Translations under genes and position numbers: made by a program | DNA from: an uncultured virus (IMG/VR IMGVR_UViG_3300002220_000771) | Lineage: Duplodnaviria > Heunggongvirae > Uroviricota > Caudoviricetes | Length of the DNA stretch: 64,000 nucleotides | Virus record (IMG/VR): IMGVR_UViG_3300002220_000771 | Strand: one strand, 5' to 3' | Part shown: positions 18,733 to 40,476 of the stretch, in pieces | Layout of the letters: each line of letters starts with the position of its first letter | Position numbering within the stretch: the first letter of the stretch is position 1 | The notes under the pieces: model-generated | The model's input: only the letters and a program-made list of their open reading frames with translations | Database searches by the model: none | Told to the model about the DNA's origin: nothing

Positions 18733-19122
18733 TTTTTAAAATTTAGAATTTTTTAAAATTATTAAGTTTTAAGGTCTTTACTATCATCTAATACCCATTG
18801 TAATACATTAATTTGGGCTATTATATCCTTTTTTTTACTTAAACTATAATTCTTATTTTTGACATCTTGGATAAGTTCATCTATTTTATCCATAATTTCA
18901 TTTGCATTTCTCATATATTTCATTATCATTTCTCCATATTTAATATATTTAATATTTCATTCCTGAAAGAAGGATTTCTTTCAATACATATTACCTCATT
19001 ATTTTTACATGATAATATTCTACATGGAACATAATCATACATATGATAATCATAATGAGAACATTCAAAGTCTTCACATTCGCCTGATATTGCAGCTTCA
19101 CATTTTACAATTTTTGGTATTG

Positions 19123-19647
19123 TCATTTTTTCACCAAGTTAAAATTATCTGGCTTATTTTTCATTATTTCCTTTATCTGGTTAAATGATACAGGGTAGAA
19201 ATTATTATTATCCACTCCAATATCATACTGCTTTCCCATTATATTTAGATTGAGATTTCCATGTGAGTGACCATACAATTGCCATGAACCATAATGAGAT
19301 CTTGGCCAAGTTAGCATTGCATAATGACATACAACAACATATTGATCTTCAATTTGTTTAGCCCATCCAGAAAAGGAATCGCCTTTCATCCACTTGTCAT
19401 GACTACCTTTCAGAAATATATGCTCACCATTCAGTTGCTTTATATACTTATCAACCGGTAGTTTATTACGGAACGCAAAATCACCGGCATGAATTACTAT
19501 ATCACTATTAGATACAACCTCATTATGCCTTCTAATAATTTCCTGATCCATTTCATATATATTATCAAATGGTCTATTACAGAATTTGATTATACTTGAA
19601 TCCCCTTTTGCATGCCCATAATGTTCATCTGAAGTAAAAAAATACAT
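19123..19647 (-). CDS. Calcineurin-like metallophosphoesterase
   Basis: SDEHYGH, GDF, GSHD, GHSH motifs; start moved to MYFFTSD to avoid the tRNA. Confidence 0.9.
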   Translation of the reverse strand: MYFFTSDEHYGHAKGDSSIIKFCNRPFDNIYEMDQEIIRRHNEVVSNSDIVIHAGDFAFRNKLPVDKYIKQLNGEHIFLKGSHDKWMKGDSFSGWAKQIEDQYVVVCHYAMLTWPRSHYGSWQLYGHSHGNLNLNIMGKQYDIGVDNNNFYPVSFNQIKEIMKNKPDNFNLVKK

Positions 19648-19668
19648 ATTTTTTTTCCTTTTTAATAT

Positions 19669-19745
19669 TGGAGGGGCTAGGGGGATTCGAACCCACCATA
19701 TTACCTGTTTAGAAGACAGGTGCGTATCCATTACGCTATAGCCCC
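19669..19745 (-). tRNA. tRNA-Arg(TCT)
   Basis: Cloverleaf, encoded CCA. Confidence 0.95.
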
Positions 19746-19753
19746 TTATTTTA

Positions 19754-19841
19754 TGGCGGAGAGGACAGGTTACGCTCCTGCAAAGGTTTTATCCCCGGCT
19801 GCTTTCAAGGCAGTTTCCCACTCTATACTAGGCACCTCTCC
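19754..19841 (-). tRNA. tRNA-Ser(TGA)
   Basis: Cloverleaf with long variable arm, GCCA end. Confidence 0.85.
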
Positions 19842-19850
19842 ATATTTTTA

Positions 19851-20231
19851 TTAATTCATATTTCTTTCAATAAGACCCATCAATATTTTTTCAAAAACTG
19901 ATAAAGATGGCATATATGTAGATTTACAATAAAATTCATCATAAATTTTTGTTGGAATATCCCAATCAAATGATACATCTAACATATAATCCATTAAAGC
20001 ATCTGCTTCATATCGTTTAATATACATATCATTTTTTTTACTAAAAAGAGCTTTAATTGCCCTTTTTCTTGCTAACCGTCTTCCTTCTTTTTTTATAGGT
20101 ATATCAAGATCTGAACAAACAGAAATACCTCTTGAATACTCATCATTTTTTCTCATGATACATACAGTTACTATAGGACGGTATTTTCTATCTCTTAAAT
20201 AATAATAATATTCTTGATCCGGTTTAAACAT
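19851..20231 (-). CDS. Hypothetical phage protein
   Basis: RGISVCSDLD...K..GR..A..RA motif. Confidence 0.75.
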   Translation of the reverse strand: MFKPDQEYYYYLRDRKYRPIVTVCIMRKNDEYSRGISVCSDLDIPIKKEGRRLARKRAIKALFSKKNDMYIKRYEADALMDYMLDVSFDWDIPTKIYDEFYCKSTYMPSLSVFEKILMGLIERNMN

Positions 20232-20256
20232 AACATATTTTCCTTTCTTATTTATT

Positions 20257-20454
20257 TATTACTTTAGTACCCCTGATTTTGTTTTATGATTACATTCCTC
20301 TTGTGGCGTCCTACCCAGCCATCATTATACTGCTCACCTATTCCGGCTCTATTTGGACTCGCACCCTCTATAGTCAAAACGATTTTTCAATCTCCTATAT
20401 TAGAGCAGTGGTGTCAGGTGGTTCCTCTCCGTAGAGCGTAATCTCAAAGTAATA
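20257..20454 (-). ncRNA. rnpB: Minimal RNase P RNA-like gene
   Basis: P1 TATTACTTTG/TAAAGTAATA; P2 GATTAC/GTAATC; short P3; GAGGAAccaccTGA with ACAAAATCAGGGGTA forming a P4-like pseudoknot; own promoter. Confidence 0.7.
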
Positions 20455-20521
20455 TTGTATTATCTTTTAACCATTTTTTATAATATATCATATTTTATTT
20501 ATATTGTCAAGAAAAATATTT

Positions 20522-20609
20522 TGGTAGGGCGGATAGGATTTGAACCTATACGAATATAAAATCCATGAGGGCTTAAGCCTCATGCGGCTACCAATTACGC
20601 CACCGCCCC
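20522..20609 (-). tRNA. tRNA-Leu(TAA)
   Basis: Cloverleaf, variable arm, CCA. Confidence 0.95.
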
Positions 20610-20618
20610 ACTATGTTT

Positions 20619-20703
20619 TGGTGCCGATGGTAGGAGTTGAACCTACACGCCTTTAGGCAATAGTGTCTAAGACTATCGTGGCTTCCAATTACACCACACC
20701 GGC
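20619..20703 (-). tRNA. tRNA-Leu(TAG)
   Basis: Cloverleaf, variable arm, CCA. Confidence 0.95.
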
Positions 20704-20712
20704 AAATTGTTT

Positions 20713-20788
20713 TGGTGAGAGCGGGGGGAATTGAACCCTCCGATACCGACATTAAAAGTGTCGTGCCATACCACTTGGCTACGCTCCC
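20713..20788 (-). tRNA. tRNA-Lys(TTT)
   Basis: Cloverleaf, CCA. Confidence 0.95.
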
Positions 20789-20794
20789 ATGTTC

Positions 20795-20876
20795 TGGAGG
20801 CCCTGATGGGACTTGAACCCACATGCATCCATTACGGTTTATTGCAGAATTTAGGAAATTCATCCGTTACAGAGCC
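20795..20876 (-). tRNA. Atypical tRNA-Arg(CCT) with displaced D-arm
   Basis: 7-bp acceptor stem, T-arm, CCA and anticodon arm present; D-loop-like sequence lies 3' of the anticodon arm. Confidence 0.7.
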
Positions 20877-20880
20877 TCAA

Positions 20881-21015
20881 AGTAATGAGGAAAAGTCGAA
20901 AACAGAAATTTTAATTGCTCACCATGAGCTTCCTGCATTTCCACAGGAATATTGGAATCGAACCAATACCATTTCGTTTCAAGCGAAGTAACCGTTTTCT
21001 GTCGCCATCATTACT
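20881..21015 (-). ncRNA. tRNA-mimic RNA (Y-RNA-like candidate)
   Basis: Terminal helix AGTAATGA/TCATTACT; internal anticodon-like arm and T-arm ATTGG-TTCGATT-CCAAT; no acceptor CCA. Confidence 0.55.
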
Positions 21016-21020
21016 ATGTA

Positions 21021-21097
21021 TGGTCAGGATGGCTGGAATTGCACCAGCGGCCTTACGGGCCCAAACCGTATGCTCTCCTTAGCTGAGCTACATCCTG
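21021..21097 (-). tRNA. tRNA-Pro(TGG)
   Basis: Cloverleaf, CCA. Confidence 0.95.
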
Positions 21098-21105
21098 TTA
21101 TGTTT

Positions 21106-21182
21106 TGGCTGGCCTGGGAGGTTACGATCCTCCATATTCTTGGGTCAAAGCCAAGCGGGTTTACCAATTCCCCTACAAGCCA
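21106..21182 (-). tRNA. tRNA-Gln(TTG)
   Basis: Cloverleaf, GCCA. Confidence 0.95.
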
Positions 21183-21190
21183 ATATTTTA

Positions 21191-21265
21191 TGGTAGCCGG
21201 AGGAAGATTTGAACTTCCGTAGGACGATTATAAGTCGTCTATTCTATCCATTGAATTACCCGGCC
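21191..21265 (-). tRNA. tRNA-Ile(TAT)
   Basis: Cloverleaf; anticodon arm GACGA-CTTATAA-TCGTC; overlaps the HNH stop codon. Confidence 0.9.
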
Positions 21266-21804
21266 AATAAATTTCTTAATTCTTGATTACCACCATAATA
21301 AATTTTTGCTTGTTCATACATATTATTCCAATATTTTTCTGAATGTTTTATTCTATGACAATTAGAACATAACAATATACATTTATCAACTTCTTTTTTC
21401 ATTGATTCCCAACTTTTTATCCCATCACCTATTCCAAATTCTTTTTGATTTGGATCTGTATGATGAAATTCCATAACTGATATATTGCCTTCATTGCCTT
21501 CATATCCACAATTTTCACATTTACTTCCTTTATATTTTATAAGAGCTATTCTATATCTCAATCTATTAAGTTTTTGATGACAATATTGACAATAATAATC
21601 ACCATTATTTGTTTGCCTTTTACAAGAAACACATTCTATATTTTTTTCTCCTCCCGGTTCTCTGCCCCATCTTTTTTTATGTGTTTTCAAATCATATTTC
21701 TTCAACCAATGTCTAATTGAACCAAGTGACTTACTTGTAATTTTTGCAATATCTCTTATCGAATTACCTTCTTTTATATATTTTTCTAATATATCTCGTT
21801 CCAT
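21256..21804 (-). CDS. HNH homing endonuclease with N-terminal HTH
   Basis: CENCG..EFHH.DP..K..C.LLCSNCHR..H. Confidence 0.9.
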   Translation of the reverse strand: MERDILEKYIKEGNSIRDIAKITSKSLGSIRHWLKKYDLKTHKKRWGREPGGEKNIECVSCKRQTNNGDYYCQYCHQKLNRLRYRIALIKYKGSKCENCGYEGNEGNISVMEFHHTDPNQKEFGIGDGIKSWESMKKEVDKCILLCSNCHRIKHSEKYWNNMYEQAKIYYGGNQELRNLLAG

Positions 21805-21872
21805 GTTATATAAACTCCTATATTTTATAGTTATTTATATAATCTTAGCACAAATGTAAACTTATTTTTTTA

Positions 21873-21892
21873 TACCATTGAGCTACAGGACC
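21873..21892 (-). pseudogene. 5' tRNA remnant (probably Ile)
   Basis: GGTCCTGTAGCTCAATGGTA, then an abrupt AT-rich break. Confidence 0.7.
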
Positions 21893-21903
21893 ATTTCTTT
21901 TTA

Positions 21904-21979
21904 TGGTGCCGTGTCCCTGAATCGAACAGGATTCCGTGGTTCTTCAGACCACTGCAATCACCAGACTTGCTCACACGGC
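21904..21979 (-). tRNA. tRNA-Phe(GAA)
   Basis: Cloverleaf, CCA. Confidence 0.95.
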
Positions 21980-21987
21980 GTATGTTT

Positions 21988-22074
21988 TGGTGACGATGCT
22001 CGGAATCGAACCAAGTTGACCACAAAGGTGTATGATCTACAGTCATACCGGTCTCCATAGCCGTCTACATCGCC
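21988..22074 (-). tRNA. tRNA-Tyr(GTA)
   Basis: Cloverleaf, variable arm, CCA. Confidence 0.9.
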
Positions 22075-22091
22075 AAATATTCATATAAAAT

Positions 22092-22133
22092 AAAAAACCG
22101 CTTATCTCTTTTTACGGGGATAAGCGGTTTTTT
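22092..22133 (-). terminator. Attenuator terminator upstream of the tRNA array
   Basis: AACCGCTTATC-loop-GATAAGCGGTT plus T run. Confidence 0.9.
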
Positions 22134-22154
22134 GTCTTTTATGAATTACTATGC

Positions 22155-22247
22155 TTATTTTACTATATCCCCCTGTGCAGACCTATATTGATAGCCAAAT
22201 AACGGCCTGAGCGATATTTTGAATTGTGGTTTCTGTTTTAAGTTCAT
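22155..22247 (-). CDS. Leader peptide MNLKQKPQFKISLRPLFGYQYRSAQGDIVK (putative attenuator)
   Basis: GAGG RBS; lies between the promoter (TTGACA 22305-22300) and the terminator. Confidence 0.75.
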   Translation of the reverse strand: MNLKQKPQFKISLRPLFGYQYRSAQGDIVK

Positions 22248-22319
22248 TTCTATCTTCCTCTATGTTCTATTTATATAATTTATCATAAAATATTCAATTT
22301 GTCAAGTAAATAATTTAAA

Positions 22320-22565
22320 TTATTTTTCAGTTGTCCATACATCTTCTACATAAGGTTCTGTTTCTGTTTTTACATATGTATCAATTATATTTTGAATTTC
22401 ATATAAATATAATGCGGCACCATACGCATTACGCACATCTACTGGCATCTTTTTAAAAATAACTTCTGTAGTATATTTCTTTCTTTCTTCTAATGATAAA
22501 AACCACCATACAATTTTATTCCAAATTGAAAAGTAGTCTCTAAATCCCTTTTGTTTTGAAGACAT
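22320..22565 (-). CDS. Hypothetical protein
   Basis: ORF. Confidence 0.6.
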   Translation of the reverse strand: MSSKQKGFRDYFSIWNKIVWWFLSLEERKKYTTEVIFKKMPVDVRNAYGAALYLYEIQNIIDTYVKTETEPYVEDVWTTEK

Positions 22566-22769
22566 ATAAATTCTTTCTTTTTATTATTTATAAAATTTTT
22601 TCATTTACATAATTCCATACATCTTTACCATATAGTGTAGTCATTGTTGTTTCAAAAATATAATGTTCATAATCGTCATCTACATAACCATTTTCACAAT
22701 CATTTATATAGGATTCGCATAAATCTATTAATTCTTCTAATTTAATATTTTTTAATATTTTTGGTCTTT

Positions 22770-23309
22770 TCATAACATTTTTCCTTTTAACAGATTGGGG
22801 TGATCGCCGGAGCTTGAATCCGGTTTTTGGAGGCCTTTACAAGATGTATCTGTTTGTGAATGACAATTTGGACACAAAAATCTTATATTCTCTATTCTAT
22901 TATCATTACTTTTTCCGTTTATATGGTCTAATTCTAGTGTCATTTTCTTATTATTCCAAATACCTGTGTTTCCACATATTGAACACTTATATTCTAATAT
23001 TCCCTCTTTTATCAATCGTTTTTTTAGATGAAATCTACTAAAATGTGACTCTTCTACTAATATTTCAGCAATCGGTTTAGGTTTATTTATTTGAAGATTT
23101 TTACCTTTATTATGACCCGACCCTAGCTGAATATGACTGTAATCTATGTTATCTTCGTTCAATCTATTCTTCAAAATAAAAAAACTGCCGCCTTTTGTTG
23201 ACTTACCTATTTTAGTAGCAATTTCTTTTAAAGAAGATGATGATTTTACAATCTCTACCAATTCATCTTTTGGTGTAGTCCAGAATACACTCGTTCTTTT
23301 TCTTGCCAT
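22770..23309 (-). CDS. HNH homing endonuclease
   Basis: CSICG..LELDHING..NDNRIEN.RFLCPNCHSQT. Confidence 0.92.
   Translation of the reverse strand: MARKRTSVFWTTPKDELVEIVKSSSSLKEIATKIGKSTKGGSFFILKNRLNEDNIDYSHIQLGSGHNKGKNLQINKPKPIAEILVEESHFSRFHLKKRLIKEGILEYKCSICGNTGIWNNKKMTLELDHINGKSNDNRIENIRFLCPNCHSQTDTSCKGLQKPDSSSGDHPNLLKGKML
22796..22824 (-). pseudogene. 3' tRNA remnant (His-like) inside the HNH 3' end
   Basis: T-arm CCGGA-TTCAAGC-TCCGG then CGATCAC-C-CCA. Confidence 0.7.
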
Positions 23310-23383
23310 TTTATACCCTCCTAAATAGTATTATGTTCGTATGTTGTTATTTATATAATACTATTAAAAAGAGTATGCATTTT

Positions 23384-23459
23384 TGGGGTGTCCAGAGGAA
23401 GTCGAATCCTCTCTACGAAGGCCACAACTTCGTGTGCAAAACCGTTACACTTTGGACAC
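23384..23459 (-). tRNA. tRNA-His(GTG)
   Basis: Cloverleaf, C73 plus CCA; position -1 is T, not G. Confidence 0.92.
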
Positions 23460-23517
23460 AAAAATATTTAAGATATTTTTATCTTAAATATTTTTTTATC
23501 CAAAACAACTCCACGTA

Positions 23518-23790
23518 ATACCCATATACCACGACCACACTCTGATATCATCGGAGCAAACTCTACAATGATACGCTGTATTTGATGTCTAAGGTTTTAA
23601 TTCGTTTTACATATCGCTTCTATGGGATATAACCATCTATAATATATCGTCATACATTATAGTGACATCATATGCTGTATTTCCAATAGGAAAGGAATTG
23701 AACCTTTCTCCTCATATGACTTTATCGGTTACTAAAACTGGCTCATGTTCGTTTACCGTAAAGGAGCCTCATATAAGTACACACCAGTCT
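23518..23790 (-). ncRNA. Candidate multibranch ncRNA within the tRNA array
   Basis: Closing helix 23770-23780/23518-23528; several hairpins including a T-loop-like one; no sense ORF. Confidence 0.55.
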
Positions 23791-23796
23791 ATTTTT

Positions 23797-23870
23797 TGGC
23801 GGGCCTTGAAGGATTTGAACCCTCAATACTTGTTCTGGAGACAAGCGTGTTTCCGTTACACTAAAGACCC
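23797..23870 (-). tRNA. tRNA-Trp(CCA)
   Basis: Cloverleaf, GCCA. Confidence 0.95.
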
Positions 23871-23877
23871 AATTTTT

Positions 23878-24087
23878 CTATTTACGAGATTTTTTCAAAG
23901 CTTTTTTAGCCAGTATTTTTACAATACGTGCGTGTTTTTTGGCCTTGTTGATTTCTCTGCGACCTGCTGCACGATAACGAGCGCATTTGGTAAGATTTCT
24001 ACCATATTTTTTTGCGCCGGAACCCTTTTCTCTTCTCTTTTTCTTCCCACCTAATGAAGAGAGAACTTCTCGGACTGTTTTTCCCAT
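23878..24087 (-). CDS. Small very basic protein within the tRNA array
   Basis: Perfect AAGGAGGT RBS; K/R-rich. Confidence 0.8.
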   Translation of the reverse strand: MGKTVREVLSSLGGKKKRREKGSGAKKYGRNLTKCARYRAAGRREINKAKKHARIVKILAKKALKKSRK

Positions 24088-24170
24088 GATTTATCACCTC
24101 CTTATGTGTGTTTTGTCATGGGAAAACCTCCTTCAACAATATAATTCATAAAAATCTCCTTTTTATTTTA

Positions 24171-24244
24171 TGGTGGCTCTTACAGGTAATGATCCTGTTT
24201 CTATCGGTTATCGGCCGATTGCTCTACCTTTGAGCTAAAGAGCC
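24171..24244 (-). tRNA. tRNA-Ile(GAT)
   Basis: Cloverleaf, CCA. Confidence 0.92.
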
Positions 24245-24253
24245 ATTATGTTT

Positions 24254-24299
24254 TGGCTGCGGTAGCAGGATTCGAACCTGCAGTTAGATCTCCTTAACA
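24254..24299 (-). pseudogene. 3' half of a tRNA-Asn(GTT)
   Basis: Starts in the anticodon loop (TGTTAA); canonical T-arm and GCCA; 5' half absent. Confidence 0.85.
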
Positions 24300-24322
24300 T
24301 TTACATTACATCATTTATATTT

Positions 24323-24400
24323 TGGCTGTAGGAGTGGGGAACGATCCCACCTATTTCGGATTAACAGTCCGACCCGCCGCACCAAGCCCGGTGTCCTACA
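24323..24400 (-). tRNA. tRNA-Asn(GTT), divergent
   Basis: Cloverleaf, GCCA. Confidence 0.88.
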
Positions 24401-24445
24401 ATATCTTTTATGTATTTAACTTTTATTTTAAAAATATTCTTTTTC

Positions 24446-24517
24446 TGGTAGCGAGTCACAGTAACGATCTGTGCTATGGATAGTTATGAGCCATCCTTGG
24501 TCCCATGACCCCTCGCC
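24446..24517 (-). tRNA. tRNA-Met(CAT), elongator-like
   Basis: Cloverleaf with short D-loop. Confidence 0.8.
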
Positions 24518-24532
24518 ATATTTATTTTCAGT

Positions 24533-24654
24533 TGGTGGGGTGAGTATCTTATCGGTACAGAATTAATCTACTTTTTCACTCCATTATCTTATCCTACCTT
24601 CGTATATTACGTAATTCAAAAGGCTACTTTAGATAACTTCCCCGAAAACACCAC
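24533..24654 (-). ncRNA. CCA-terminated rod-like RNA candidate
   Basis: Spaced like a tRNA, ends ACCA, imperfect long terminal helix, no cloverleaf. Confidence 0.45.
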
Positions 24655-24660
24655 ATATTT

Positions 24661-24737
24661 TGGTAGCGGGTGGAGTTACCGCCACTCCTGATATCTACCT
24701 TATGAGAGTAGTGAGACACTTTTTCTCTATTCCCGCG
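24661..24737 (-). tRNA. tRNA-Met(CAT), initiator-like acceptor stem
   Basis: CGCGGG start with a 1:72 mismatch; lacks the GGG/CCC anticodon stem; odd T-loop. Confidence 0.75.
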
Positions 24738-24745
24738 ATATATTT

Positions 24746-24821
24746 TGGAGTGTCCGATGGGACTTGAACCCACATAAACCTATTTTGCAGACAGGCGCCT
24801 CTCCATTTCGGCAACGGACAC
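24746..24821 (-). tRNA. tRNA-Cys(GCA)
   Basis: Cloverleaf, U73, CCA. Confidence 0.95.
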
Positions 24822-24874
24822 TTACTTTCTATTATGTTTTATTTATATAATATTACCATATTTATTTTTATTTG

Positions 24875-26005
24875 TCAAGATATTTTTTTATTAATTTCTG
24901 GATATGGTGTTCTACTGATTAGAATTTCTTTACATCCTGTAACTTCTTTAATTTTCTCAATAAAATCATTTTCATTACCAAAATTTAAAATATTACCATT
25001 ATATGTAAGAGTATAACTGTTGAGTAAATCCAAGCATGTTATTGCTAATATAAAGTTATGATTTTTTATATACCCATCTTTATTTATAGCATATTTTATC
25101 AAATCTAAATCTAATATGGTTTTTCTAAATTCTCCTTGAATACCTGTATCAAAATTCTCCTCATATGGATTATTTTTTATATCATTTGGTATGTGCTCGT
25201 TAGTCATTGGGCCATTACCATGTCTTGTCTGATAAGCCCTTGTAACTAATATTATTTCAGGACTCTCTGTAAGTTCTAATATATTTTTTGTTCCAGTATT
25301 GGCCCTTGTAACATGAGGGAAAAATCCAAAATTTTGATCTAAAAGTAATCCTTGTGATCCTTCATAAATGTAATTATCATAAGTAAATTTATTATCGTTA
25401 TTCAGGAAATTATTTACAATTTTTATATTATCTATTTCTAATAAATGCTCACAAATATAAATGAAATCATTATGTATTGTATTATCTATTGTGATCCTTT
25501 TATTTTCATAATATTTTCGTATACAATTTAATTTTATTTTTAATATTGATGAGTGTAACAAATCAAATGCTGTTAAAGAATAATGATCTTCTTCTCGTTG
25601 AATTGTTTGACCTACACCAACTCCACAACTACCATGCTCTGTTTTAAAATCCAAAATTCTATTATAAATTTTTTCATATGGTGTTGTAATTGGACATTTA
25701 TCATCTATAATTAATTTAGGTATGGTATGGATTTTTCCTTCCAATACTGTTAATTCATTTATGATACCTACTGGATCAACTGTGCAGAATTTAGACCAGT
25801 ATGTGTCGCAACCATGAAGTGTTCCACTACCAAAATTAGAAAATACATGATCAATACCATTTTTTAAAACAACGTGGTGGCCAGCTTGTTGGCCACCACA
25901 AAATCGTATTATTAAATTTTTAGATGAATATGTAGATAAATAGCTTACAATTTTACCTTTACCTTCATCACCAAAACCACATCCTACAACTGCGACATGT
26001 TTCAT
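24875..26005 (-). CDS. purA: Adenylosuccinate synthetase-like protein
   Basis: GFGDEGKG, GGQQAGH, GSCGVG, EGSQG.LLD, TRAYQTRHGNGP. Confidence 0.85.
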   Translation of the reverse strand: MKHVAVVGCGFGDEGKGKIVSYLSTYSSKNLIIRFCGGQQAGHHVVLKNGIDHVFSNFGSGTLHGCDTYWSKFCTVDPVGIINELTVLEGKIHTIPKLIIDDKCPITTPYEKIYNRILDFKTEHGSCGVGVGQTIQREEDHYSLTAFDLLHSSILKIKLNCIRKYYENKRITIDNTIHNDFIYICEHLLEIDNIKIVNNFLNNDNKFTYDNYIYEGSQGLLLDQNFGFFPHVTRANTGTKNILELTESPEIILVTRAYQTRHGNGPMTNEHIPNDIKNNPYEENFDTGIQGEFRKTILDLDLIKYAINKDGYIKNHNFILAITCLDLLNSYTLTYNGNILNFGNENDFIEKIKEVTGCKEILISRTPYPEINKKIS

Positions 26006-32330: not shown

Positions 32331-33173
32331 TTAACAGAAATTAAACCCCAATTCTAATTTTGTTTTTCTTTTATTTTCCTCATTAAAATCAATTCCTAAT
32401 TTGTCAAAAACATAACCATATCTAATAGGTTTATCAAGGGTTTTAAAAAACTGTTCATTTACATTATAATATTCTGCAAATTTATAAACATTTTGAAAAA
32501 TATTACCTTTATGATCAAATACTGGATTTATCACCCTTAATGGTTGTTTTCTATTTTTAAACACTTCCTTTAATTTTATTATATGCTCTAATGTTTTTTT
32601 CTTACCCTTTAACGCTTTAGATATTTTTAATCCAAACCCAATAGGTTTTGGTTTTCGCATTTTCTTTTTTGTTTCATCTGATACAATATTTTCTGTATGT
32701 GATAAAATGACAGCATTTCTATATTTCTTATCATTTTCCCAACGATCTTTTAAATACTGACTATGTTCTTTTTTTCTTTCATCAGACCATTTCTTTTTAC
32801 TTAATTGTTTCCTTCTAAATTCATCATTTTTCCAATTATTTTTTGATCTTAATGACATTTCTAATAATACTTGTTGACTAAAAAGACCAAATCCTTTTCT
32901 ATTATAGAATGAAACCCTATTTAATATTTTTGGATTAGAAAAATTATCATTTATTATTTGTTGTTCTGTATTATATGCTTCGGTTTTATTGAAGCTTTCA
33001 AATAATATTAGACCAATATATTTTTCATTATTTTTTATTTTTTTCTTTACTACCTTAGAAGATGTAAAGTATTTTATTAAAAAATCATCCGATATTTTTT
33101 TCTTTGTTCCTCTATATCCAATATAGAAATAACCATCATCAAAAATTATTTTATACACATACCAATTTTTCAT
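32331..33173 (-). CDS. GIY-YIG (Seg-like) homing endonuclease
   Basis: YVYKI..YIGY..YFTSS..E..LN; basic NUMOD-like repeats. Confidence 0.85.
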
Positions 33174-40238: not shown

Positions 40239-40267
40239 TTGACAATTTTTTAACAATATGTTATAAA
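40239..40267 (+). promoter_or_regulatory. Sigma70-type promoter overlapping TATAAATA, driving the right tRNA array
   Basis: TTGACA-17-TATAAA. Confidence 0.85.
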
Positions 40268-40274
40268 TATATAC

Positions 40275-40334
40275 ATGAAGATAAGAAAACGATTTATAAA
40301 AGTTGAGAGTACAGAAGGTACCAAATTTAGGTAA
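40275..40334 (+). CDS. Leaderless leader peptide MKIRKRFIKVESTEGTKFR (putative attenuator)
   Basis: ATG at the predicted +1; stop codon lies inside the antiterminator strand. Confidence 0.7.
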   Translation: MKIRKRFIKVESTEGTKFR

Positions 40335-40355
40335 CGGGGGAAGTGTCTGCGAAAG

Positions 40356-40387
40356 ACCCTGTTACCAGTAGGTAACAGGGTTTTTTT
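40356..40387 (+). terminator. Attenuator terminator upstream of the tRNA array
   Basis: CCCTGTTACC-AGTA-GGTAACAGGG-TTTTTTT. Confidence 0.95.
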
Positions 40388-40402
40388 ATTATTGAAAAAT
40401 AT

Positions 40403-40476
40403 AGTGCATTAGTTTAGTGATAGAACCAAAGACTTTCAATCTTTAGGCACCGGTTTGATTCCGGTATGCACTACCA
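40403..40476 (+). tRNA. tRNA-Glu(TTC)
   Basis: Cloverleaf, CCA. Confidence 0.88.

What the first reader, a model, noticed from the sequence alone, without database searches (positions are those of the whole stretch)
22074..22305. Second, independent attenuator whose leader codons mirror the left tRNA array
Seen: a promoter, a GAGG RBS and a 30-aa ORF, then a terminator (22092-22133) just before tRNA-Tyr. GGGGATA in the final codons can pair with TATCCCC in the terminator 5' arm/loop. 21 of 30 codons are L, K, Q, P, F, I, R or Y, exactly the eight amino acids of the tRNAs at 20522-22074, each present at least twice. Both Ile codons are ATA (the array has Ile-TAT) and both Arg codons are AGG (the array has Arg-CCT). 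The sequence is unrelated to the 40.3-kb leader but the logic is the same. Inference: each leader acts as a codon index of its own array.
Basis: partly seen in the sequence, partly recalled or inferred. Interest (0 to 1): 0.92.

Follow-up and report, generated by a model that had tools for sequence, protein, structure and literature searches.

The report
Leader-peptide attenuator before phage tRNA genes
A short translated leader and a transcription stop signal sit directly in front of a phage's tRNA gene cluster, and probably let the phage make more of those tRNAs only when ribosomes run short of them.

Summary
The anatomy is real, on the minus strand. It comprises a promoter (22305-22277), a GAGG ribosome-binding site, a 30-codon ORF (22247-22155), a 15-bp terminator (22133-22092), and tRNA-Tyr 17 nt further on. 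Predicted folds give the classic three-helix attenuator: 1:2 at -15.6, 2:3 at -11.7 and 3:4 at -18.3 kcal/mol.

Against random short ORFs of this AT-rich window it gives p of about 0.08-0.17. The "Arg-CCT tRNA" is a degenerate tRNA-like element.

The idea holds as a family. I found the same layout nine times in four unrelated uncultured phages: a short ORF whose last codons carry a copy of the terminator's 3' arm, then a terminator, then the first tRNA. Examples are HQQPRPR before Pro-Gln-His-Arg and NNNNDDN before Asp-Asn.

- Pairing each leader with its own array beats all 362,879 other pairings.
- Each leader's 3' end pairs with its own terminator better than in any of 200,000 shuffled pairings.
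- Two diverged homologues of one leader keep the H/Q/P/R codons while the terminator stems differ completely.
- A tenth case turned up out of sample.

Best reading: ribosome-mediated attenuation giving demand-driven feedback on phage tRNA synthesis. Seven literature searches found no report of it. There is no expression evidence.

The parts
22277..22305 (-). Promoter: -35 TTGACA (22305-22300), 17-nt spacer, extended -10 TG (22285-22284) plus TAAATT (22282-22277). The transcription start is predicted near 22270.
   Evidence: It belongs to a 20-copy class against 0.09 expected by chance, and the copies are co-oriented with the genes.
22257..22260 (-). Shine-Dalgarno GAGG, 9 nt upstream of the leader ATG.
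   Evidence: 48 of 68 long ATG ORFs of the window carry GGAG/GAGG/AGGA at -18..-5, against 4.7% of random 14-mers.
22155..22247 (-). Leader ORF of 30 codons plus stop: MNLKQKPQFKISLRPLFGYQYRSAQGDIVK. The best-matching stretch is codons 3-21, where 16 of 19 are amino acids of the array.
   Evidence: The in-frame score is 3.6, against 0.7 and 0.7 in the other two frames.
22204..22217 (-). Region 1 (AUAUCGCUCAGGCC, codons 11-15). It pairs with region 2 when no ribosome is present. It holds four of the phage's rarest codons: UCG, CUC, AGG and CCG, at 2.4-5.3 per thousand.
   Evidence: Minimum-free-energy folds; codon usage.
22165..22183 (-). Region 2 (GGUCUGCACAGGGGGAUAU, codons 22-28). It is the 3' strand of helix 1:2 and the 5' strand of the antiterminator 2:3. 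It ends 4 nt before the stop codon.
   Evidence: The duplex with the terminator's 5' arm and loop is -15.5 kcal/mol, against a shuffle mean of -9.2; 2.3% of 300 shuffles do as well.
22092..22133 (-). Intrinsic terminator: 15-bp stem AAAAAACCGCUUAUC / GAUAAGCGGUUUUUU, a 12-nt loop and a U-tract. UAUCCCC (22122-22116) in the upper arm and loop is region 3.
   Evidence: Helix 3:4 is -18.3 kcal/mol.
20522..22074 (-). Regulated tRNA array: Tyr-GTA, Phe-GAA, an HNH endonuclease ORF (21256-21804), Ile-TAT, Gln-TTG, Pro-TGG, two degenerate tRNA-like elements (Ser-TGA-like 20942-21014 and Arg-CCT-like 20799-20892), Lys-TTT, Leu-TAG and Leu-TAA. No promoter of the phage class lies inside the array; the next one is at 20510.
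40239..40402 (+). Sister unit in the same window. It has -35 TTGACA at 40239-40244 and -10 TATAAA at 40262-40267. A 19-codon ORF (40275-40334, MKIRKRFIKVESTEGTKFR) starts 8 nt after the -10 and has no ribosome-binding site. The antiterminator strand AGGUAACGGGGG (40329-40340) overlaps the stop codon. The terminator is at 40351-40387 and tRNA-Glu starts at 40403.
   Evidence: The duplex is -19.0 kcal/mol; 1% of shuffles do as well. ESTEGT gives 6 of 6, empirical p 0.009.

Best explanation
The element is a ribosome-mediated (leader-peptide) transcription attenuator that gates a phage tRNA array.

Proposed mechanism:
1. Transcripts start at the 22305 promoter, or arrive from upstream genes, and carry a 30-codon ORF.
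2. If the ribosome reads through to the stop codon, it covers region 2 (GGGGGAUAU). The 15-bp terminator then forms and transcription stops 17 nt before tRNA-Tyr.
3. If the ribosome stalls anywhere in codons 5-21, because tRNAs for those codons are scarce, region 2 stays free. It pairs with UAUCCCC in the terminator's 5' arm and loop, the terminator cannot form, and the polymerase runs into the array.
4. With no ribosome at all, helix 1:2 holds region 2 and termination occurs.

The leader codons are largely those read by the array's own tRNAs, so the products of the array switch their own synthesis off. This is a demand-driven feedback.

Shown here: the sequence anatomy, the predicted alternative folds, and the family-wide statistics. 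Inferred: that the ORF is translated, that termination is conditional, and that the array's tRNAs are what is sensed.
For: Anatomy and folds of this leader:
- Helices 1:2, 2:3 and 3:4 are -15.6, -11.7 and -18.3 kcal/mol.
- Masking a ribosome footprint at codons 5, 8, 11, 14, 17 or 21 makes 2:3 the minimum-free-energy fold of the nascent RNA. Masking at the stop codon gives the terminator.
- The promoter class is real and Shine-Dalgarno use is real.
- No room for a promoter is evident by eye in the 17 nt between the terminator and tRNA-Tyr.

Family:
- Among 269 unique tRNA upstream regions in the window and 160 PurZ-anchored loci, 9 have a strong terminator ending within 45 nt upstream.
- Eight of those 9, plus one more fetched from the same contig as L068, have a short ORF ending 16-30 nt before the terminator.
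- Examples:
  - VKQFATHQQPRPRSNPAVQLL before Pro, Gln, His, Arg-ACG
  - ...EFNNNNDDNP before Asp, Asn
  - MIAILHIQHLLPQSSQRRSSSLCLPREYSPGN before Ser, Gln, Cys, His, Gln, Leu, Pro...
  - MRVQLTHNHINRNWQRNCQISNGMSNWIPRK before Gln, Gln, Ser, Trp, Asn, His...

Statistics on the nine leaders:
- In the leader-by-array permutation, the true pairing is the unique best of 362,880, and the own array ranks first for 8 of 9 leaders, including this one.
- The result holds with a random-short-ORF background and without the two window leaders (1 of 5,040).
- In codon families only partly covered by the array, 49 of 65 leader codons are cognate against 38.8 expected, p = 0.004.
- In the own-versus-cross antiterminator test on 11 leaders, own pairs sum to -150.6 kcal/mol against a mean of -101.4 for permuted pairings. 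None of 200,000 permutations does as well.
- The best antiterminator strand ends within 18 nt of the stop codon in 9 of 9 leaders.
- The open frame scores best in 9 of 9.

Conservation and replication:
- Two diverged homologues of one leader (L247 and L243) keep the start-codon column (GTG/ATG/GTG) and the H-Q-x-P-x-R codons, while the three terminator stems share no sequence.
- Out of sample, L228 has FNAFNQEQGWA before Phe, Trp, Ala, Asn, Tyr, Glu, Lys, His, Gln. Its last codons AGUUCGAG copy the terminator's 3' arm.
Against: - This leader is the weakest member. Its empirical p against random short ORFs of the window is 0.083. The plain fraction test gives 0.17, or 0.11 with Arg.
- Its array set (F, I, K, L, P, Q, Y) is what AT-rich DNA encodes anyway: a mean of 54% in random short ORFs.
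- No diverged relative of this phage was found to test conservation. The only near record is 100% identical over the leader, and searches found nothing.
- The 2:3 helix has only about 7 contiguous pairs.
- The Arg-CCT-like and Ser-TGA-like elements, which would match AGG and UCG in region 1, are not canonical tRNAs.
- Most tRNA arrays have no such leader. Without the terminator criterion, 4 of 130 arrays score 4 or more, against 11 of 650 controls. At least 5 of 10 further terminator-preceded tRNAs show no signal.
- The ORFs used in the structure and frame tests, and the array limits used in all the tests, were partly my choices.
- The host is unknown. From memory, transcription-translation coupling is loose in some low-GC Gram-positive bacteria.
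Confidence: 0.65

Rival explanations
1. It is a translation-sensing attenuator, but not a codon index. The leader and the alternative helices work as described, yet this leader reports general ribosome supply or speed, or rare-codon reading by host tRNAs. Its resemblance to the array's amino-acid set comes from AT-rich composition.
For: - The structural evidence is the same as for the main reading.
- The codon match of this leader alone is not significant against random short ORFs (0.083; 0.11-0.17).
- The four rare GC-rich codons of region 1 are also needed to build helix 1:2.
Against: - The own array still ranks first of nine for this leader under both backgrounds.
- Sister leaders with the same architecture match their arrays through rare amino acids (H, Q, P, R, W, C, N, D) that composition cannot explain.
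Confidence: 0.17
2. The element is a promoter-proximal terminator overcome by a factor, or simply leaky, in the style of lambda pR'-tR'/Q or N-nut. A phage protein or a cis-acting RNA would make the polymerase terminator-resistant at a set time of infection. The short ORF would be incidental.
For: - A strong promoter followed by a terminator about 180 nt downstream, ahead of the real cargo, is the layout of Q-type late control (recalled, not tested).
- The layout occurs twice in the window.
- No expression data exist.
Against: - It does not explain why the open frame tracks the downstream tRNA set (1 of 362,880; 9 of 9 in frame).
- It does not explain why a copy of each terminator's 3' arm sits at the end of each ORF.
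- It does not explain why the H/Q/P/R codons persist in diverged homologues.
- The two window leaders were noted to share only a short GGGGGA run (by eye; they were not aligned). They were not searched for a shared nut- or qut-like motif.
Confidence: 0.1
3. It is a stand-alone small gene or small RNA. The promoter, ORF and terminator would make a 30-aa peptide, or a roughly 180-nt RNA, with a function of its own. The tRNAs would be fed by upstream transcription that leaks through.
For: - It is a complete transcription unit with a ribosome-binding site.
- Released attenuator RNAs can act in trans; rnTrpL in Sinorhizobium is an example (abstract of PMC6614838, seen in the listing).
Against: - Apart from codons matching the arrays, the leader peptides show no shared motif by eye across the family; only the three G2a homologues were aligned.
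- The peptide is hydrophilic and was not searched against any protein family.
- This reading does not exclude attenuation; it could be an added role.
Confidence: 0.05

Closest known systems
Leader-peptide attenuators of enterobacterial amino-acid operons (trpL, hisL, pheL, leuL; the multivalent thrL and ilvL/ivbL)
   Same: - A promoter-proximal short ORF rich in regulatory codons.
- Mutually exclusive 1:2, 2:3 and 3:4 helices, with 3:4 an intrinsic terminator.
- The stop codon is placed so that a finishing ribosome masks region 2.
- Several amino acids are sensed at once, as in thr and ilv.
- The helix energies here (-15.6, -11.7, -18.3) are of the order I recall for trp.
   Different: - The regulated genes are tRNA genes, not biosynthetic enzymes, so the sensed molecule is the product itself.
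- Up to 11 different amino acids are represented in one leader.
- The element is carried by phages.
- There is no sequence relation: none of the Rfam leader families scored E <= 1 in 19000-25500.
- Some members lack a Shine-Dalgarno site or may be leaderless.
pheST (pheM leader) attenuator of E. coli phenylalanyl-tRNA synthetase (recalled)
   Same: Leader-peptide attenuation applied to a gene of the translation apparatus, so that shortage of one charged tRNA raises the capacity to supply it.
   Different: It controls a synthetase and one amino acid. Here the tRNA genes themselves are controlled, for many amino acids at once.
T-box riboswitches
   Same: They have the same regulatory goal: to sense tRNA status and switch between a terminator and an antiterminator upstream of translation-supply genes.
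   Different: - A T-box binds uncharged tRNA directly through a specifier codon and the conserved T-box sequence, and needs no translation.
- There is no T-box (RF00230) hit at E <= 1.
- The leaders here are open reading frames, and the signal is frame-specific.
Lambda pR'-tR' with Q antitermination
   Same: A strong promoter, a short terminated transcript, and then the cargo genes.
   Different: Q acts on the polymerase at a DNA site and needs no ORF. It would not predict the codon-array matching or the terminator-arm copies at the ORF ends.

Membership tests
Ribosome-mediated (leader-peptide) transcription attenuator | A short ORF with a credible start signal, close to the promoter and upstream of the regulated genes | tested here: met
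   ATG at 22247, with GAGG 9 nt upstream. Shine-Dalgarno sites are used by 48 of 68 genes of this phage. The promoter class has 20 copies against 0.09 expected.
Ribosome-mediated (leader-peptide) transcription attenuator | An intrinsic terminator between the leader ORF and the regulated genes | tested here: met
   A 15-bp stem plus U-tract at 22133-22092, 17 nt before tRNA-Tyr.
Ribosome-mediated (leader-peptide) transcription attenuator | An antiterminator helix that excludes the terminator, with its 5' strand placed where a ribosome at the stop codon masks it | tested here: met
   - GGGGGAUAU ends 4 nt before the stop codon. Its duplex is -15.5 kcal/mol against -9.2 for shuffles.
- Constrained folds switch as predicted.
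- Family-wide, own terminators pair better than cross terminators; 0 of 200,000 permutations do as well.
Ribosome-mediated (leader-peptide) transcription attenuator | Regulatory codons enriched in the leader and cognate to what the operon supplies | tested here: inconclusive
   - For this leader: p = 0.005 against coding composition, but 0.083-0.17 against random short ORFs. The own array ranks first of nine.
- For the family the feature is met: 1 of 362,880.
Ribosome-mediated (leader-peptide) transcription attenuator | A 1:2 helix that sequesters region 2 when the leader is not translated | tested here: met
   It is predicted in the unconstrained minimum-free-energy fold (-15.6 kcal/mol). Its conservation could not be tested because no diverged relative was found.
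Ribosome-mediated (leader-peptide) transcription attenuator | Read-through depends on translation and on tRNA supply | not testable with these tools
   No sequencing run on record as RNA holds this DNA. The test needs reporters, Term-seq or ribosome profiling.
T-box riboswitch | Stem I with a specifier loop, and the conserved T-box sequence in the antiterminator | tested here: not met
   There is no RF00230 match at E <= 1 in 19000-25500 with permissive filters.
Known Rfam leader families (Trp, His, Leu, Thr and similar) | A match to a curated covariance model | tested here: not met
   Only tRNA, an RNase P-like hit and sub-threshold noise were reported.

The most novel reading that the evidence does not exclude
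Some large phages run each tRNA array as a self-tuning unit. A leader peptide spells out, codon by codon, the tRNAs encoded behind it. Any shortfall in those tRNAs then derepresses exactly the array that can repair it. The shortfall could come from a codon-usage mismatch with the host, from decay of host tRNAs during infection, or from host defence nucleases that cleave tRNAs. This would be the first attenuator whose sensed molecule is its own RNA product, and it would amount to an inducible counter-defence.
Probability: 0.45. Interest if true: 0.92.

Novelty: new variant of a known kind. Interest (0 to 1): 0.85.

Why it matters
Why phages carry tRNAs, and how they control them, is an open and active question; codon compensation, loss of host tRNAs and escape from tRNA-cleaving defences are all in play.

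A leader that lists the array's codons would show that these phages measure tRNA demand directly and regulate supply one array at a time. It extends textbook attenuation to genes whose product is the sensed molecule.

It also gives a simple sequence rule (short ORF, copy of the terminator arm, terminator, tRNA) for predicting which tRNAs are limiting for an uncultured phage. The short, self-contained leaders can be tested with synthetic reporters even though none of these phages is in culture.

Tried and rejected
- **Close relatives of the window phage.** I wanted them to test conservation of this leader. None was found by blastn against GenBank phages, by protein-anchored scans with the 81-aa neighbour and with PurZ, by the exact terminator pattern, or by a tRNA-Tyr pattern. 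The only near record, G001, is 100% identical over the leader.
- **Expression.** No RNA holder is listed among 7 runs, all DNA. I did not lay reads.
- **Rfam.** There is no T-box or known leader family at E <= 1.
- **T5.** Its tRNA region has small ORFs and promoters between tRNAs, but I saw no terminator-leader unit in the five stretches I read. T5.070 (6 Cys in 42 aa, in CxxC pairs) before tRNA-Cys looks like a zinc ribbon.
- **General scan without the terminator criterion.** In 130 arrays there is no excess: 4 of 130 score 4 or more, against 11 of 650 controls. The signal is confined to terminator-bearing units.
- **Rows dropped from the nine-leader test.**
  - L012 4323: an atypical hairpin with no leader-like ORF; later scored, share 0.56.
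  - L068 19520 and 19626: a Lys array with K-rich ORFs, but a hairpin without a U-tract.
  - L054 11466 and L067 7135: terminators that follow ordinary genes.
- **Further loci that added no member.** These were L166-L224 and L263-L289. Among L226-L262, the terminators before tRNA-Cys follow a 92-aa ordinary-looking ORF and show no signal.
- **Pfam.** There is no family for the 69-, 81-, 61- and 126-aa neighbouring ORFs.
- **Literature.** Seven full-text searches returned no paper on attenuators or leader peptides in front of phage tRNA genes. I saw listings and abstracts only, except passages of PMC5331693, which were irrelevant.
Full report
**What is there**

The window is a low-GC (about 28%) stretch of a large uncultured phage. 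It encodes a PurZ-type adenylosuccinate synthetase, an NAD-dependent ligase and T4-like replication proteins. It has no close GenBank relative: PurZ is at most 36% identical.

Long ORFs lie almost all on the minus strand below about 40 kb and on the plus strand above it, so the finding must be read on the minus strand. Read that way the region contains, in order:
- -35 TTGACA at 22305-22300, a 17-nt spacer containing TG, and -10 TAAATT at 22282-22277.
- GAGG at 22260-22257.
- A 30-codon ORF at 22247-22155, MNLKQKPQFKISLRPLFGYQYRSAQGDIVK.
- A terminator with a 15-bp stem (22133-22119 and 22106-22092), a 12-nt loop and a U-tract.
- tRNA-Tyr, starting at 22074, 17 nt after the terminator.

The array then runs Tyr, Phe, an HNH endonuclease ORF, Ile-TAT, Gln, Pro, about 230 nt of degenerate tRNA-like sequence, Lys, Leu-TAG and Leu-TAA.

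**Is it more than chance?**

The promoter is one of 20 copies of TTGACA-N14-TGnTAnnnT in the window, against 0.09 expected. Nineteen of the 20 copies point the way the genes do. No other copy lies inside the array; the next is at 20510.

The phage uses Shine-Dalgarno sites: 48 of 68 long ATG ORFs have one, against 4.7% of random 14-mers.

My hairpin scan found only about fifteen terminator-like sites in 64 kb, and few of them are long stems. Only two such hairpins end within 60 nt upstream of a tRNA: this one, and one at 40351-40387 that lies 16 nt before tRNA-Glu.

The counts are right: 21 of 30 codons, each of the eight amino acids at least twice, ATA twice and AGG twice. Two corrections are needed.

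First, standard detection gives seven amino acids in the array, not eight. The 'Arg-CCT tRNA' is found only at a relaxed ARAGORN threshold, at 20799-20892. It has a good acceptor stem, T arm, CCA end and a CCU anticodon loop. However, it lacks the D stem and carries a 23-nt insertion compared with canonical Arg-CCT genes of relatives. A Ser-TGA-like remnant at 20942-21014 is similar.

Second, the significance depends on the null.
- Against coding composition (84 ORFs, 14,984 codons) the set frequency is 0.468. Then 21 of 29 gives p = 0.005, AGG twice gives p = 0.01, and ATA twice gives p = 0.40.
- Against 514 random short ORFs in all six frames of this AT-rich window, the seven-amino-acid set already averages 54%. 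The leader's fraction is reached by 17% of them, or 11% with Arg. 'Each amino acid at least twice' occurs in 6 of 514, or 4 of 514 with Arg.

**Structure of this leader**

The unconstrained fold has a hairpin inside the ORF, followed by the terminator. In that hairpin, region 1 (AUAUCGCUCAGGCC, codons 11-15) pairs with region 2 (GGUCUG...GGGGGAUAU, codons 22-28). The fold beats all 200 shuffles, z = -4.2.

Evaluated separately, 1:2 is -15.6, 2:3 is -11.7 and 3:4 is -18.3 kcal/mol.

I then masked a ribosome footprint at codon 5, 8, 11, 14, 17 or 21 and folded the RNA up to the terminator loop. In every case the minimum-free-energy structure is the 2:3 antiterminator. With the ribosome at the stop codon, region 2 is masked and the terminator forms. 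This is the layout of the classical trp-type attenuator.

**The sister unit at 40.3 kb**

The sister unit has -35 TTGACA, a 17-nt spacer and -10 TATAAA. A 19-codon ORF starts 8 nt after the -10, without a ribosome-binding site, so it may be leaderless. It reads MKIRKRFIKVESTEGTKFR.

The strand AGGUAACGGGGG overlaps the stop codon and pairs over 10 bp with the terminator's 5' arm: -19.0 kcal/mol, reached by 1% of shuffles. ESTEGT matches the Glu, Ser-GCT, Thr and Gly tRNAs downstream.

**Relatives**

PurZ has thousands of relatives in metagenomes at 50-61% identity. I fetched 80 IMG/VR loci and 80 metagenome loci around it.

Among 269 unique tRNA upstream regions, nine have a strong terminator ending within 45 nt of the tRNA. 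Eight of the nine show the same unit. They are the two in the window, four in one complete 77.6-kb phage (L065), one in a 236-kb contig (L068) and one in L140/L141. A second unit on the L068 contig was fetched deliberately.

The leaders and their arrays are as follows:

| Leader peptide | tRNA array behind it |
|---|---|
| VKQFATHQQPRPRSNPAVQLL | Pro, Gln, His, Arg-ACG |
| MFKVRNTEKTWCTDGGMAIAVINTGSGG | Trp, Thr, Met, Ile, Glu, Gly, Ala, Val, Lys, Arg |
| a 60-aa ORF ending EFNNNNDDNP | Asp, Asn |
| MIKNLLCLSFSYSLTTAGGHALLDH | Leu, Leu, Phe, Cys, Tyr |
| MNAICNILPLFKSPKVKPLFYLVPKVCVVSS | Leu, Leu, Tyr, Leu, Val, Pro, Phe |
| MRVQLTHNHINRNWQRNCQISNGMSNWIPRK | Gln, Gln, Ser, Trp, Asn, His, (Ile), Cys |
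| MIAILHIQHLLPQSSQRRSSSLCLPREYSPGN | Ser, Gln, Cys, His, Gln, Leu, Pro, ... Arg, Met, Leu, Arg |

**Statistics on the family**

For each leader I took all ORFs of at least 12 codons ending near the terminator and scored them against each of the nine arrays.
- With a whole-ORF binomial score, 3 of 362,880 permutations reach the true pairing.
- With a best-window score, only the true pairing does. The own array ranks first for 8 of 9 leaders and second for the ninth. Without the two window leaders the result is 1 of 5,040.
- With amino-acid frequencies taken from random short ORFs of each locus, the result is unchanged at 1 of 362,880.
- Each leader's share of random short ORFs from its own locus scoring at least as high:

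| Leader | Share scoring at least as high |
|---|---|
| this leader (W1) | 0.083 |
| sister leader at 40.3 kb | 0.009 |
| L065, before Pro | 0.005 |
| L065, before Trp | 0.013 |
| L065, before Asp | 0.0025 |
| L065, before Leu | 0.04 |
| L068 | 0.0056 |
| second unit on the L068 contig | 0.0098 |
| L141 | 0.0037 |

- In codon families that the array covers only partly, 49 of 65 leader codons are cognate under conservative wobble rules, against 38.8 expected, p = 0.004.
- The open frame scores better than both other frames in 9 of 9 leaders.

**Antiterminators**

In all nine leaders, the strand that best pairs with the terminator's 5' arm ends within 18 nt of the leader's stop codon. In four it overlaps the stop, and in one it lies just after it. 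It is usually a near copy of the terminator's 3' arm.

Across 11 leaders, own leader-terminator duplexes sum to -150.6 kcal/mol, against a mean of -101.4 for permuted pairings. None of 200,000 permutations does as well. This leader's own terminator is the best partner in its row.

**Homologues and an out-of-sample case**

A tRNA-Pro pattern brought in 37 more loci. Two of them carry diverged homologues of the Pro-Gln-His-Arg leader:
- L247: MNFTNLHQLPQRLEINRGGTGM.
- L243: VKMIFTHTQLPQQLRPISVERDWYM. In L243 the array also holds Leu-TAG, and the leader holds Leu codons.

The start-codon column is GTG/ATG/GTG and the H-Q-x-P-x-R codons persist. Five of the six Arg codons are ones that Arg-ACG can read. 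The three terminator stems share no sequence yet all pair.

An unrelated 127-kb contig (L228) has a 44-codon ORF containing FNAFNQEQGWA before Phe, Trp, Ala, Asn, Tyr, Glu, Lys, His, Gln. That stretch gives 10 of 11 matches, and the share of random short ORFs scoring as high is 0.014. Its last codons AGUUCGAG copy the terminator's 3' arm.

**Limits**
- The unit is rare. Of ten further terminator-preceded tRNAs, five show no signal; these are terminators after ordinary genes or weak hairpins. Two more are uninformative.
- Arrays in general show no excess without the terminator criterion.
- Array limits were partly my choice. So were the addition of three tRNAs seen only by Rfam or relaxed ARAGORN and the ORFs used in the structural and frame tests.
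- No RNA data exist.
- This leader has no diverged relative.

**Interpretation**

The best reading is ribosome-mediated attenuation of tRNA-array transcription. Stalling on codons served by the array's tRNAs frees the antiterminator. Smooth translation to the stop codon masks it, and the terminator fires. The tRNAs made would then shut the unit off.

For this particular leader the attenuator anatomy is well supported. Its codon specificity rests on analogy with stronger family members.

The rivals are a general translation sensor, factor-dependent antitermination, and a stand-alone small gene. They explain the layout but not the frame-specific, array-specific codon content, nor the terminator-arm copies at the ORF ends.

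**Novelty**

The mechanism is textbook. Its target (tRNA genes), its many-amino-acid leaders and its presence in phages were not found in seven full-text searches. Subscription-only literature was not searchable, including the older work on T5 tRNA genes.

Noticed in passing
window 20257-20454 (-), promoter 20510-20482: A 198-nt RNase P RNA-like gene lies directly after the last tRNA of the array and has its own consensus promoter. Rfam RNaseP_arch matches over the whole model with large deletions: 39.9 bits (E 7e-9) in one run and 29.5 bits in another, both below the gathering score of 84. Core strings (GAGGAA, AGGACGC, GAAUG, AACAAAA) align. It may be a minimal phage-encoded RNase P RNA that processes the arrays.
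   Followed up: partly
window 20799-20892 and 20942-21014 (-): Two degenerate tRNA-like elements sit inside the array. One is Arg-CCT-like, with a good acceptor stem, T arm and CCA end but no D stem and a 23-nt insertion. The other is a weak Ser-TGA-like element. Their anticodons would read AGG and UCG, two of the rare codons in region 1 of the leader.
   Followed up: partly
window 24875-26005 (-): A PurZ-type adenylosuccinate synthetase (PHROG 'aminooxy adenylosuccinate synthetase', E 1e-55) suggests a 2-aminoadenine (Z) genome. Relatives at 50-61% identity occur on contigs of up to 306 kb.
   Followed up: partly
window, 20 sites (for example 1748, 2041, 15720, 24850, 30334, 38018, 41264, 42758, 47264): There is one highly uniform promoter class, TTGACA-N14-TGnTAnnnT. 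It has 20 exact matches against 0.09 expected, and all but one are oriented with the genes. The copy at 24878 sits directly before tRNA-Cys with no leader.
   Followed up: partly
window 21256-21804, 22770-23309 (-); 32331-33173 (-): Homing-endonuclease ORFs (HNH type) are inserted within and beside the tRNA arrays, as in phage T5.
   Followed up: no
window 23878-24087 (-): A very basic 69-aa ORF lies between tRNA-Ile-GAT and tRNA-Trp. It has no Pfam match.
   Followed up: partly
L068 19300-19630: An array of three tRNA-Lys genes is preceded by an ORF ending KVKQNGKEKKLKKLR and by a 13-codon ORF, MKKINNIKRKRKQ. A hairpin without a U-tract follows. This may be a variant of the same logic that lacks a canonical terminator.
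   Followed up: no
L019 8221; L012 16766; L054 13829; L204 6373 and 6502; L208 9948; L215 10063; L165 1271: Several PurZ-phage relatives carry suppressor-type tRNAs with anticodons TTA or CTA. This hints at stop-codon reassignment in parts of this phage group.
   Followed up: no
L225 (phage T5) 10628-10756: T5.070, a 42-aa ORF with six Cys in CxxC pairs, sits directly before tRNA-Cys with no terminator between them. It is more likely a zinc ribbon than a leader.
   Followed up: partly
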